Source: Eledone cirrhosa
Lineage: Eukaryota
Direction: 5' to 3'
Length of the DNA stretch: 64,000 nucleotides
Assembly (NCBI GenBank): GCA_964016885.1
Contig: OZ024747.1
Span: 54,622,001 to 54,686,000, forward strand
The notes under the pieces were generated by a model. It saw only the letters and a program-made list of their open reading frames with translations, ran no database searches and was not told the DNA's origin. Shown in pieces: positions 6,811-60,825 of the stretch. Made by a program: the position numbers and the translations under genes. Each line of letters begins with the position of its first letter. Position 1 is the stretch's first letter.

Positions 6811-7004
6811 ATAGGAACGAGTAGGACCCCGACGGCTGAGCTCAAGCCGTTTCGACGGCTAATTCGCGTCCAGAATTAGCCGTCGAAACGGCTTGAGCTC
6901 AGGCGTCGGAGTCCTACTCGTTCCTATTACCCACTCTACTACCCTGAGTATTGAGTACTTTGGTGTGTTATGGTCCATCTGGTTCCTTACCACATTTCCT
7001 TGGT
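6811..7004 (+). mobile_element. Fold-back short element family A, copy 1, in (TA)n
   Basis: ~55-bp inverted arms 6811-6865/6873-6927 plus unique tail; homologous to 20445-20646 and 60532-60727; TA runs on both flanks. Strand is arbitrary, taken from the tail side. Confidence 0.8.
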
Positions 7005-7035
<31 letters not shown>

Positions 7036-8037: not shown

Positions 8038-8083
<46 letters not shown>

Positions 8084-8090
<7 letters not shown>

Positions 8091-8898
8091 ATACTTTGGG
8101 AGGGTCATGTTGCCAATAAGAAACACACGCACCAGTTGCTTTCACTTCAATTTAATTTATTATATATTTATAAATTTACAAGTTTATAAATTTCTGGTTG
8201 GTTGGTTGGTTCCACAACCAGATAGTTGTTTATATATATATAGCCATAGTTCTTTCGTCACACACTCTGTGACCTCTTCAGTGACTGGGGATTTCTTTCT
8301 TCGTTTCTGTGCCTTTCCTTTCTTCTATCCTACGCCATTTTGTTTGTGTGTGGGTTGCGTGCTCAGTTTGCGCATGCGCCACATCCGGGTGTCTGTGTGT
8401 GTTTGTGTTCATTTTTCTATTTTTCTATTTATATTTTTCTATTTGTTTATTTATTTATTTATTTATTGTTGGTTGGTTGTTTGTTCTATGTGTGTGTGTG
8501 TTTTCATTTTGTCTTGTGTGTGTTTTCATTTTGTCTTGTGTGTGTTTTCATTTTGTGTGTGTTTTCAATTGTAAGTTGTTTGTTCTATGTGTGTGTGTGT
8601 TTTCATTTTGTCCTTAATTGTAAGTTGTGATGTTGCTGTTCCACTCATATTTTCTATTTAATTTTGGTTTTAATTCTTTTATGCTTACTGCCTCTGTAAT
8701 TTGCCTAATCATTGCGTCTTTCTTGTGTGTGGAACCAACCAACCAACCAGAAATTTATAAACTTGTAAATTTATAAATATATAATAAATTAAATTGAAGT
8801 GAAAGCAACTGGTGCGTGTGTTTCTTATTGGCAACATGACCCTCCCAAAGTATAACAATATCGGTTTCAACACACGATTTCAGATAAAGAATCTTGCT
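8084..8898 (-). mobile_element. 5'-truncated Penelope-like element with inverted partial pseudo-LTR
   Basis: Minus strand ~8725-8614 reads RKDAMIRQITEAVSIKELKPKLNRKYEWNSNITTYN* (GIY-YIG C-terminus), then 3' region with a hammerhead; ~133-bp inverted repeat 8084-8216/8727-8860; (TA)n on both flanks. Confidence 0.85.
8242..8286 (-). ncRNA. Minimal type I hammerhead ribozyme in Penelope pLTR
   Basis: Minus: AGTCA-CTGAAGA-G-GTCACAgagtgTGTGAC-GAAA-GAACT-A-TGGCT; stem I AGTCA/TGGCT, 6-bp stem II, CUA triplet. Confidence 0.75.
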
Positions 8899-8915
8899 AA
8901 ACAAATTCAGAAACG

Positions 8916-9076
<161 letters not shown>

Positions 9077-20402: not shown

Positions 20403-20444
<42 letters not shown>

Positions 20445-20448
<4 letters not shown>

Positions 20449-20646
20449 GAAGGAGGTGTGGTAAGAAACCAGATGGAGCATAACGCACCAGAGTACTCAA
20501 TACTTAGGGTAGTAGAGTGGGCAATAGGAATATGTTAGACCCCGACGGTAGAGCTCAAGCCGTTTCGACGGCTATTTCAGCAGTGAGTCCAGAAATAGCC
20601 GTTGAAACGGCTTGAGCTCTGCCATCGGGGTCTAACATTTTCCTAT
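20445..20646 (-). mobile_element. Fold-back short element family A, copy 2, in (TA)n
   Basis: Reverse-orientation homologue of 6811-7004; arms ~20524-20578/20592-20646. Confidence 0.8.
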
Positions 20647-20698: not shown

Positions 20699-20759
20699 TT
20701 TCATTTACCAGTGGTTTCTTAAAAGCAAAAAAAATTTGCTTTCAATCATCAGAATGAAA
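20699..20759 (-). ncRNA. Type I hammerhead ribozyme (mirror copy)
   Basis: Reverse complement of 20774-20834 with differences only near the stem II loop. Confidence 0.8.
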
Positions 20760-20773
20760 AAAATCCAGGATGT

Positions 20774-20834
20774 TTTCATTCTGATGATTGAAAGCAAAAT
20801 TATTTTGCTTTTAAGAAACCACTGGTAAATGAAA
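20774..20834 (+). ncRNA. Type I hammerhead ribozyme
   Basis: TTTCATT-CTGATGA-TTGAAAGCAAAAttaTTTTGCTTTTAA-GAAA-CCACTGGT-A-AATGAAA; 7-bp stem I, 12-bp stem II, GUA triplet at 20825-20827. Confidence 0.85.
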
Positions 20835-57203: not shown

Positions 57204-57693
57204 AAAAGGGAGTAAGATTCTATACAAAACAGGGGTTATAGAGAAAAGTTGAAATTGGAAATAGCACGGAAAATAAATTTGAGGAACTGTTTTTCATTTT
57301 TACTTCTCTGATTCGTCAAAGTGACATTATTGAAAAAAAGAGATGAACAGTTCTTTCGTAATGTATATAAAATCTATAAAATCTAACGGGTTTCGATGTA
57401 TCAGTGTGAACCATGTTATTAAATGTGAAACCATGTTATTAAATGTGGAATATTACAATTAAAAAGAATTAAACACAATCAAAAATCTTTAATTTAAAAT
57501 TAAGTGTTGAGAAGGACTGTTGTTTGTTATGTGTTGTCTGCATAGTTTTGCCTGCGTTACATCCGGTTGTGTGCGTGTTTATTCATCTATTTACGTGTTC
57601 ATTTAATTTTCACTAGTTGAGTGTTCTATCTGTGTGTCTGATCTCTTTTGTTAGTTTGGTTTTTGTGCGTGTCTGTATGTCTTCATTTTGTCC

Positions 57694-58027
57694 TTAATTA
57701 CTAGTTGTGATGTTGCTATTCCACTCATTTTTTCTATTTAATTTTGTTTGCAATTCGTTTATGTTTGTTGCCTCCATGATTTGTCTGAGCATTGCATCTA
57801 TTCTGTGTTGATATAATGTTTATCACTATGTTATCTAATGTGCCCCTATCATCTATTTTCGGATGTTGATGGAGTATTGATAAGTTTTTCCCATCGTGGA
57901 GGTCTCGCCAGTGTTCACTTATCCCTTCTACTGTGCTACGGACTGTTTCACTATGTATGTTATATTCTTATTCCTACACTTTCACTCAGTACATTTTATG
58001 CTATATACTACGTTCCTAGGTTTTGCA
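57694..58027 (-). pseudogene. Penelope-like GIY-YIG endonuclease remnant
   Basis: With one stop and two frameshifts: NVVYSIKCTE*KCRNKNITYI(G)ETVRSTVEGISEHWRD...SILHQH...DAMLRQIMEATNINELQTKLNRKNEW; same family as 8084-8898. Confidence 0.85.
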
Positions 58028-58029
58028 AT

Positions 58030-58428
58030 TAGTTTTGGGGCTTATCTTGAATATTATGAATTTCCTACCAACACAGGGGAACTTTTAAATGCGTATGACT
58101 TACCCCTGAGCAATCTAAGCACACAGCACACAAAAACAAGATGGTGTAGAACAGAACAAAGGAGGGACAAAAAATAAAGACCTACTCATTGAGGAGGTCA
58201 CATAATGTGTGACGAAAGATCTTTGACAATATATAAACAACATTACGGTTATAGAAACAACCAACAAAACGAAAATGTATAATAAACTGAAGTGAAATCA
58301 ACAGGTGTGTCTGTTTTTTATTGAACGCATGACACCGACCCTCCCCCCTCTCAAATGTATAGCAATATCTGTTTCAACACACGTTTTCAGATCAGAAATC
58401 TTGCAAAAAAATGCAAAAACGAAGTTCA
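58030..58428 (+). mobile_element. Inverted Penelope pLTR with a degenerate hammerhead (58186-58226)
   Basis: TCA-TTGAGGA-G-GTCACAtaatgTGTGAC-GAAA-GATCT-T-TGA; 58280-58425 is homologous to 8790-8898. Confidence 0.75.
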
Positions 58429-58542: not shown

Positions 58543-58656
58543 CATATATATATATATTTCGTATCTCCAAAGAAATACGGTTTTAGGAAGCTGTGGCTAT
58601 GCAAACACCGGGGAGCTAACGCCCTCTTGTGATGTCCAGCAGAAGCAAGGGGGACA

Positions 58657-58700
58657 ACCGTCTATGCATTTCAGGCTTAACTGGCCTTCGTCAGAACGGT
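58657..58700 (-). ncRNA. Canonical minimal type I hammerhead ribozyme
   Basis: Minus: ACCGTT-CTGACGA-AGGCcagttaaGCCT-GAAA-TGCAT-A-GACGGT; palindromic stem III ATGCAT, AUA triplet; distal pairing TGTCCAGCAG/CTGCTGGACA extends stem I. Confidence 0.88.
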
Positions 58701-58744
58701 CCCTCCCACCGCTTGCGACTGCTGGACAAGAAGACAGGCGAGAA

Positions 58745-58793
58745 TATATAGTTTTCTCGTCTGTGTAAATGAGGTGATTAATCTCATTTGCAT
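58745..58793 (-). promoter_or_regulatory. Putative snRNA-type promoter (octamer, PSE-like, TATA)
   Basis: Minus: ATGCAAAT-8 nt-TCACCTCATTTACACAG...(27 nt)-TATATA, 44 nt upstream of the hammerhead; repeated on + at 58973-59021. Confidence 0.5.
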
Positions 58794-59089
58794 ATGAAGC
58801 TGCATAAGTTGGCTCAACTTATAATAAAAAAGAAATAGGATTTCGCTTCAAGCATAGCTTTATACAATATGTATAAATATTTCGTATCTCCAAAGGAATA
58901 CGGTTTTAGGAAGCCGTAGCTATGCAAGCGTCTCTTTTTTATTATAAGTTGAGCCAGCTTATGCAGCTTCATATGCAAATGAGATGAATCACCTCATTTA
59001 CACAGGCCAGAAAAGTATATATTCTGTTGAAGCTATGCTTGAAGCGAAATCCTATTTCTTCATATATATACATATATAAATATTTATAA

Positions 59090-59239
59090 CAATGAGGGTG
59101 TGGTAAGATACCAGATGGACCATAACGCACCAGAGTACTCAAAACTAAGAGTCAGGGCCCGACGGATGAGATCCGGCCGTTTCGGCAGCTAGATTCCGAA
59201 CTACCTGTCGGAGCGCAGCTGTCGAGATCCTGCTTCTTT

Positions 59240-59243
<4 letters not shown>
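59090..59243 (-). mobile_element. Divergent relative of fold-back family A
   Basis: Tail TTGAGTACTCTGGTGCGTTATGGTCCATCTGG..TCTTACCACACC shared with family A; GCCGAAACGGCC core; only a short fold-back. Confidence 0.7.
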
Positions 59244-59296
<53 letters not shown>

Positions 59297-59372
59297 GAAA
59301 AATGAAATGAAATTTCGTTTCATTTTTTCCGTTTATCGTTTTCGGTGCACCCGGCCGATTAACCCACTCGAT

Positions 59373-59420
59373 ATGCAAATTGGGCTACTCAGCCGTTAAT
59401 ATGCATAAGGTAAGTATATA
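59373..59420 (+). promoter_or_regulatory. Putative snRNA-type promoter (octamer, PSE-like, TATA)
   Basis: ATGCAAAT-8 nt-TCAGCCGTTAAT...(26 nt)-TATATA, 26 nt upstream of hammerhead stem I. Confidence 0.5.
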
Positions 59421-59446
59421 CGTTCAACAATCTGGCAGGAAGGTAT

Positions 59447-59489
59447 ACGTTGCTGACGATAGCTAATAAGCTTGAAACTACTACAGCGT
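59447..59489 (+). ncRNA. Minimal type I hammerhead ribozyme
   Basis: ACGTTG-CTGACGA-tAGCTaataAGCTt-GAAA-CTACT-A-CAGCGT; stem I extended by AAGG/CCTT, CTGGCA/TGTCAG and GTTCAACA/TGTTGAAC. Confidence 0.8.
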
Positions 59490-59759
59490 TCCTTTGTCAG
59501 TGTTGAACAAACGAGCAACGATGGTTGCTCGACACTACGGCTTAATACGGGATGTTTGTTTTTTTACAAACACACCGAGCATTATAATAAATGTTCGGTG
59601 AATCCATACGTGCATATATATATGTGTGTATGTATGTATATATATATATACATACTACTGTACGTCTGTATACATATATGTATGTACGTGTACATACTTA
59701 TATTTAAGTAACAGCCGTACTAAGAGTGGGAAATGAAATTTCGTTTCATTTTTTCCGTT

Positions 59760-59859
<100 letters not shown>

Positions 59860-60454: not shown

Positions 60455-60825
<371 letters not shown>

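What the first reader, a model, noticed from the sequence alone, without database searches (positions are those of the whole stretch)
58554..59061. 323-nt ribozyme monomer with circular-permutation redundancy and a rearranged inverted copy of its promoter segment
Seen: ~50 bp repeats after exactly 323 nt (58554 and 58877). It is followed by an inverted copy of 58742-58832 (the octamer-TATA block) and then an inverted copy of 58830-58860, out of order. The hammerhead has all core nucleotides and a palindromic stem III (ATGCAT). Known: such minimal hammerheads cleave efficiently as dimers. Inference: more-than-unit-length copying of a circular or tandem RNA with template jumps at the 5' junction. 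The repeats differ at several sites, so the insertion is not very recent.
Basis: partly seen in the sequence, partly recalled or inferred. Interest (0 to 1): 0.75.

Follow-up and report, generated by a model that had tools for sequence, protein, structure and literature searches.

The report
Retrozyme carrying the host's U6-type promoter
This is one copy of a 323-base jumping repeat, present over a thousand times in this animal genome, that holds a hammerhead ribozyme fold and the same promoter boxes as the host's U6 genes, and whose copies are likely pasted in by Penelope-type retrotransposons; transcription and cutting were not tested.

Summary
The sequence features are real, but the locus is one ordinary, dead-end copy of a large family (1,041 exact hits of a 20-mer). 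RNA sense is the minus strand. The hammerhead fold is backed by four compensatory pairs between two subfamilies. Across 77 loci not chosen for their ends, 5' ends are spread round the unit and 47 of 143 arms exceed one unit, but 3' ends are fixed at two sites about 45 nt apart. Most insertions are two inverted arms pointing outward into (TA)n, one with and one without the tail (34 of 38): the anatomy of Penelope-like elements, also shown by an abundant autonomous element here. The 'out of order' piece is that second arm with a 203-nt skip. No pile-up of 5' ends at the cut or start site fits a circular or multimeric template. The octamer-TATA block matches this genome's U6, U6atac and RNase MRP promoters, not U2, and heads hammerheads in several other families. 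No RNA data. Known kind (retrozyme; newt satellite 2 is the precedent); the scan noted the promoter cassette before on other DNA of this genome (e1-8804837).

The parts
58554..58927 (-). Left arm, 374 nt = 1.16 units; RNA 3' ('short') end at about 58554, 5' truncation at 58927
58554..58876 (-). One 323-nt unit of the family
58877..58927 (-). 51 nt of the next unit upstream (the 'redundancy'); where copying stopped
58651..58707 (-). Type I hammerhead: stem I 58701-58695/58662-58656, core 58694-58688, stem II 58687-58673, palindromic stem III 58669-58664; predicted cut between 58663 and 58662
58783..58794 (-). Octamer-containing 12-nt box, identical to the box at -77/-78 of a host U6 gene and of RNase MRP
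58743..58750 (-). TATA box, 44 nt after the start of the box (host genes 47-49); predicted +1 at about 58720
   Evidence: +1 is inferred from U6 spacing
58826..58831 (-). Run of six T, the only run of four or more on the RNA strand of the unit; site of the second ('tail') 3' end; Pol III terminator-like
58554..58566 (-). 13-nt end motif, 12 of 13 identical to the outer 3' end of an abundant autonomous Penelope-like element
   Evidence: blastn E 0.03, weak
58928..58932 (.). 5 extra bases at the joint between the two arms
58933..59025 (+). Right (inverted) arm, promoter block (box 58972-58983, TATA 59016-59023)
59030..59060 (+). Right arm, tail and 3' end; joined to the promoter block across a 203-nt skip by 4 extra bases (59026-59029)
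58544..58553 (.). (TA)n target remnant, left; a similar run lies at 59062-59077

Best explanation
This is a truncated copy of a non-coding hammerhead repeat (retrozyme) whose unit carries the host's U6-type promoter boxes and which is likely copied into (TA)n by the RT and GIY-YIG nuclease of a Penelope-like element from a likely circular or multimeric RNA. Shown: family size, two fixed 3' ends, inverted two-arm insertions with the tail on one end, arms longer than one unit, ribozyme covariation, match to host type-3 promoters. Inferred: in a source locus with promoter plus two ribozymes, Pol III starts about 30 nt after TATA, sometimes reads through the U-run, and the two hammerheads (pairing through the palindrome) cut out a unit-length RNA that contains the promoter boxes and may be ligated to a circle; the Penelope protein primes at the two fixed sites on opposite target strands, copies for a mean of about 137 nt past the entry point, and the two cDNAs join by short overlaps. 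More-than-unit copying rebuilds promoter plus two ribozymes, so a promoter that lies outside the primary transcript is inherited. The window copy has one ribozyme and cannot make a unit-length RNA by itself.
For: 1,041 exact 20-mer hits, control 0. 77 loci unselected for ends: 116 of 143 3' ends in two 20-nt bins, 5' ends spread. 52 of 79 insertions tail-out inverted; of 38 with both ends classed, 34 have one tail and one short end, P 6e-7. The same anatomy is described for Penelope-like elements (Craig 2021, passages) and seen in an RT/GIY-like element of this genome with 1,200-aa frames, 150 of 150 scored hits at 96-100%. Arms of one locus share rare variants at 2.6 per 1,000 nt against 0.37 between loci. 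212 arms: 5' ends at cut site 4 vs 5.0 expected, at start site 13 vs 15.8. Four pairs change on both sides between subfamilies, 92% of cells paired, slid controls 27-54%. Box at -76 to -78 plus TATA at -30 in 17 of 25 U6 loci, the top U6atac locus (1 of 8) and RNase MRP (1 of 1), in 0 of 12 U2 loci. Promoter block 78 of 81 sites kept between subfamilies against 189 of 228 elsewhere, p 0.002. Six distinct fetched loci hold promoter plus two intact cores.
Against: No RNA evidence of any kind. Box-to-TATA spacing is 44 here against 47-49 in host genes. The internal U-run is six long in 64 of 104 units and should stop Pol III before the promoter is transcribed, so the model needs read-through or Pol II host transcripts. 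The older subfamily has the same tail end without a U-run, so the terminator does not set that end. The young subfamily has A-U at the base of stem II where G-C is the conserved pair; only 1 of 9 Xenopus retrozyme dimers cut in vitro (Li 2026). No homology to the terminal repeat of any Penelope-like element sampled beyond a 13-nt motif, so the partner is not identified. One array of about 10 units exists and could supply linear multimers. The covariation is one event per pair between two subfamilies; 'pairs with a change on both sides' did not beat the shuffle (446 of 500).
Confidence: 0.72

Rival explanations
1. Same element and same Penelope-type insertion, but the template is a linear multimer read by Pol II from host genes or from a tandem array; the ribozyme rarely cuts and no circle is needed.
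For: An array of about 10 units with the promoter at its 5' edge exists; the U-run would not stop Pol II; fixed 3' ends do not lie at the ribozyme cut; U2 genes here also have a TATA-like run near -31.
Against: Among 60 exact two-ribozyme tandems no two are consecutive, so long arrays are rare; array units are only 84-90% alike and older than most dispersed copies; ribozyme pairs and promoter block are selectively kept; the box is found at Pol III genes, not U2.
Confidence: 0.2
2. The repeat is just the terminal repeat (pLTR) of an autonomous Penelope-like element, left as 5'-truncated stubs.
For: Li 2026 reports such homology for 24 of 57 Xenopus families; neighbouring family B in this window is exactly such a stub.
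Against: In the mapped loci the unit runs on into itself, up to 868 nt and 10 units; no coding frame was noticed joined to its 5' side, though flanks were not screened systematically; no match to 46 GIY-YIG loci or to family B beyond AT-rich words and the 13-nt end. Only part of 10,596 GIY-YIG candidates was sampled.
Confidence: 0.05
3. Local DNA rearrangement (slippage, fold-back) of a one-off insertion produced the direct and inverted repeats.
For: The locus lies among microsatellites; the 203-nt skip could be a later deletion between inverted arms.
Against: Hundreds of loci repeat the same two ends and inverted layout.
Confidence: 0.03

Closest known systems
Metazoan non-LTR retrozymes (Cervera and de la Pena 2020, PMC7229834; passages and Discussion read)
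   Same: About 300-350 nt unit, type I hammerhead with one-pair palindromic helix III, tandem tendency, no coding frame, Penelope-like elements proposed as helpers.
   Different: Mostly dispersed, truncated, inverted two-arm insertions with two fixed 3' ends; promoter boxes inside the unit (a search of that paper for 'promoter' gave only T7 constructs); circles not shown here.
Newt satellite 2 (Coats 1994; paper not held; known here from a citing passage in PMC2220036)
   Same: About 330-nt hammerhead repeat with an internal snRNA-type promoter.
   Different: Cited as Pol II; here the boxes match the host's Pol III genes (U6, U6atac, MRP) and not U2; here copies are dispersed with Penelope-type ends rather than satellite arrays.
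Penelope-like elements, EN+ (Craig 2021, bioRxiv 2021.04.23.441226, passages; Schostak 2008, PMC2377424, abstract and Discussion)
   Same: 5' truncation, partial tandems, inverted 5'-truncated second copy, tail on one end only, (TA)n targets, upstream copy supplying the promoter.
   Different: No RT or nuclease; promoter is TATA-containing and U6-like, whereas Penelope's is TATA-less; tail about 45 nt.
Xenopus retrozymes derived from pLTRs (Li 2026, bioRxiv 2026.07.22.740005, parts 1-3 of 5 read; supplements not open)
   Same: Non-autonomous hammerhead repeats linked to Penelope-like elements.
   Different: Link here rests on insertion anatomy, not pLTR homology, which was not found in the sampled elements.

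Membership tests
Type I hammerhead ribozyme | Conserved core with three stems, NUH cut site | tested here: met
   core pattern intact in 180 of 240 mapped units
Type I hammerhead ribozyme | Self-cleavage (monomer or dimer) | not testable with these tools
   needs in vitro assay; MFE fold of a natural dimer did not show the paired form, uninformative
Non-LTR retrozyme | Short non-coding unit with type I hammerhead, in tandem in at least some loci | tested here: met
   60 exact two-ribozyme tandems, one array of about 10 units
Non-LTR retrozyme | Expressed as unit-length linear and circular RNA | not testable with these tools
   no RNA run listed
Penelope-like insertion | Fixed 3' end, variable 5' truncation, partial tandems | tested here: met
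Penelope-like insertion | Inverted second copy and tail on one end only | tested here: met
   52 of 79 inverted; 34 of 38 one tail and one short end
Penelope-like element (autonomous) | RT and GIY-YIG reading frame | tested here: not met
   323-nt unit runs into itself; coding frames belong to other families
pLTR-derived retrozyme | Homology to the terminal repeat of an autonomous element | tested here: inconclusive
   only a 13-nt end motif shared; 46 GIY-YIG loci plus family B sampled
Type 3 Pol III promoter | Host upstream box plus TATA at U6-like positions | tested here: met
   box identical, TATA present; spacing 3-5 nt shorter than host genes
Type 3 Pol III promoter | Drives Pol III initiation about 30 nt after TATA | not testable with these tools
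   no RNA or ChIP data

The most novel reading that the evidence does not exclude
This genome holds a superfamily of retrozymes that solved the problem of inheriting an upstream (type 3) Pol III promoter: the ribozyme-cut unit circle carries the promoter, and a Penelope-like protein primes twice on that same circle at two fixed sites to write inverted, more-than-unit copies. The 323-nt unit would be a minimal substrate for the still unexplained tail and inversion steps of Penelope retrotransposition.
Probability: 0.4. Interest if true: 0.7.

Novelty: new variant of a known kind. Interest (0 to 1): 0.48.

Why it matters
Short retroelements normally need a promoter inside the transcript (established knowledge); a U6-type promoter lies upstream and is lost on copying. 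This family appears to keep one through more-than-unit copying. It also gives direct anatomical evidence that a retrozyme is moved by Penelope-type machinery without sharing its terminal repeat, and offers a small defined substrate for the tail and inversion steps that Craig 2021 lists as undefined. The pieces (retrozyme, snRNA-type promoter in newt, Penelope link) each have precedent.

Tried and rejected
Rfam gathering search: 0 hits. Sequencing runs: no RNA holder listed; the four runs laid were contigs of unrecorded kind and say nothing on expression; they only pointed to an older subfamily. Idea that 5' ends mark the cut site or start site: rejected. Idea that the Pol III U-run sets the tail end: weakened, the older subfamily has the end without the run; a slight excess of 5' ends at both AT-rich end sites was not significant (P 0.06). 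Satellite-array origin for most copies: no consecutive matches among 60 tandems. Search for a parent element by homology: none in 30 + 16 GIY-YIG loci or family B. Family B protein: no Pfam hit, Atlas gave no answer, PDB only a weak GIY-YIG hit at E 0.23; it is classed by blastp to Pfam-confirmed RT-GIY frames (E 4e-20) and motifs. Coats 1994 not held. Six paper searches (listings only unless stated) showed no description of this family or of a U6-type promoter in retrozymes; subscription papers, repeat databases and bioRxiv supplements were not seen. The shuffle test of the promoter score (0 of 1,000) uses a model from only five host genes and is rough.

Full report
Observation. The direct repeat (58554-58604 and 58877-58927, spacing 323) and the two inverted pieces (58933-59025; 59030-59060) are as described. 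A type I hammerhead lies on the minus strand at 58707-58651; the unit folds far better than shuffles (z -6.2). Rfam has no match at gathering score. The host is an animal genome of 3.0 Gb; that it is a cephalopod is my guess from recalled repeats and was not tested.

Family. A 20-mer from the ribozyme occurs 1,041 times exactly, control 0. I mapped fetched loci on a circular map of the unit. The first 30 loci were selected for covering the query, so the counts use 77 loci picked only by the 20-mer, the first listed places on one contig after removing duplicates. Of 143 arms, 116 have their RNA 3' end in two bins (261-280 and 301-320 of 323); 5' ends fall all round the unit; 47 arms exceed one unit, the longest 631 nt. 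Of 79 insertions, 52 are two inverted arms with 3' ends outward, 26 single, 1 other; of 38 inverted pairs with both ends classed, 34 have one tail end and one short end (P 6e-7). Flanks are mostly (TA)n. Joints between arms show 1-4 nt overlaps in 53 of 108 and are blunt in 15. The window copy fits: left arm with the short end, right arm with the tail end. Its right arm lacks 203 nt between TATA and tail; 13 jumps between co-oriented pieces were seen in 137 loci. Whether this skip arose during copying or later is open.

Who moves it. Craig 2021 (passages) lists 5' truncation, partial tandems, an inverted truncated copy, a 30-40 bp tail on one end and microsatellite targets as Penelope-like traits. 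The genome has RT-GIY frames confirmed by Pfam. One family (B), whose decayed stub lies just left of the finding, is young and abundant (150 of 150 scored hits 96-100% identical), has frames of about 1,200 aa with YVDD, a CxxxxCxxC finger and a GIY-like end, a hammerhead in its 3' part, seamless partial tandems and one short plus one tail end in the inverted pairs examined (3 of 3). Its outer end shares 12 of 13 bases with our short end (E 0.03), and similar words sit near the ends of family C; this is a lead for the helper, no more. No other homology was found.

Template. Arms and tandem units of one locus share rare variants seven times more often than copies at different loci, also within one diagnostic type (2.6 against 0.37 and 0.32 per 1,000 nt): one molecule or one source. 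Correcting for how loci were picked, 212 arms show no excess of 5' ends at the ribozyme cut (4 against 5.0) or the predicted start (13 against 15.8), so the template has no preferred 5' end: a circle or a long multimer. Sixty exact two-ribozyme tandems exist, none consecutive; arms reach 868 nt; one array of about 10 units, 84-90% alike, exists. Circles are proposed for retrozymes and Penelope elements in print but are not shown here.

Ribozyme. An older subfamily differs by four compensatory pairs, three in stem II and one in stem I; 92% of cells pair, slid controls 27-54% (38 hand-picked sequences with an intact core). These are single events between two lineages, and one shuffle measure was not exceeded. 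The young subfamily has A-U at the base of stem II, where G-C is the usual pair.

Promoter. The 12-nt box at 58794-58783 is exact in 93 of 111 copies. The same box lies at -76 to -78, with TATA at -30, in 17 of 25 U6 loci (three independent places; 6 more are displaced by an insertion, 2 lack it), the best U6atac locus (1 of 8) and RNase MRP; it is absent within 300 nt of 12 U2 loci. Spacing to TATA is 44 here, 47-49 in the host genes. The block is better kept between subfamilies than the rest of the unit (78 of 81 against 189 of 228, 12 older copies). A genome pattern for box plus TATA gave 769 matches against 58 control, overlaps included; of 28 distinct loci read, 8 have an exact hammerhead core about 90-110 nt downstream, in five sequence groups, two with host spacing of 48-49. 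The unit's only T-run of four or more on the RNA strand lies just upstream of the block, at the tail end. This fits Pol III but also means read-through is needed for the promoter to enter the RNA, and the older subfamily has the end without the run.

Mechanism and limits. Best model: source loci with promoter plus two ribozymes (six distinct ones among fetched loci) give a unit-length RNA that includes the boxes; a Penelope-type protein primes at two fixed sites and copies past one unit often enough to rebuild a source, much as the upstream copy supplies the promoter in Penelope (Schostak 2008, Discussion). Transcription, polymerase, cutting, circles and helper identity are all inferred. No RNA run was listed.

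Standing. A retrozyme with Penelope-type insertion anatomy and a U6-type promoter: a new variant of a known kind. Newt satellite 2 is the precedent for an snRNA-type promoter (citing passage only); Li 2026 argues the Penelope link by homology. Six searches showed no paper on this family.

Noticed in passing
window 59296-59762 (+): Family C: a second hammerhead repeat with the same box-TATA-ribozyme order (box 59372, spacing 43, core near 59452) and a T-run before the promoter; tandem units in L186.
   Followed up: partly
window 57649-58423; also 8083-8341 and 8577-8938: Decayed inverted stubs of family B, an abundant autonomous Penelope-like element with about 1,200-aa frames (L300, L302, L304) and a hammerhead in its 3' part.
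   Followed up: partly
window 59076-59240; related pieces at 6941-7017, 20434-20510, 60669-60739: Family D, a very common (TA)n-flanked repeat with hammerhead-like words in unusual order; may be the scrambled hammerhead family of earlier notes.
   Followed up: no
window about 4005 (-), 20752 (-) and 20781 (+), 61999 (+): Further type I hammerhead-like motifs; the pair near 20750-20780 forms a head-to-head inverted insertion.
   Followed up: no
L310, L315, L318 and L321 (match near 1500): Other repeat groups with the box and TATA at host spacing (48-49), a hammerhead about 106-109 nt after the box and a T-run soon after it.
   Followed up: partly
L222:4631-7960: Array of about 10 units starting exactly at the octamer box and ending at the short end; one deletion variant occurs twice, hinting at local duplication.
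   Followed up: partly
L037, L038, L040-L043: U6 genes of a tandem cluster whose upstream box is pushed to -270 by an insertion of about 190 nt at the TATA box.
   Followed up: no
L179, L180, L183, L188: Another RT-GIY family with a hammerhead about 380 nt after its stop codon and inverted double insertions.
   Followed up: partly
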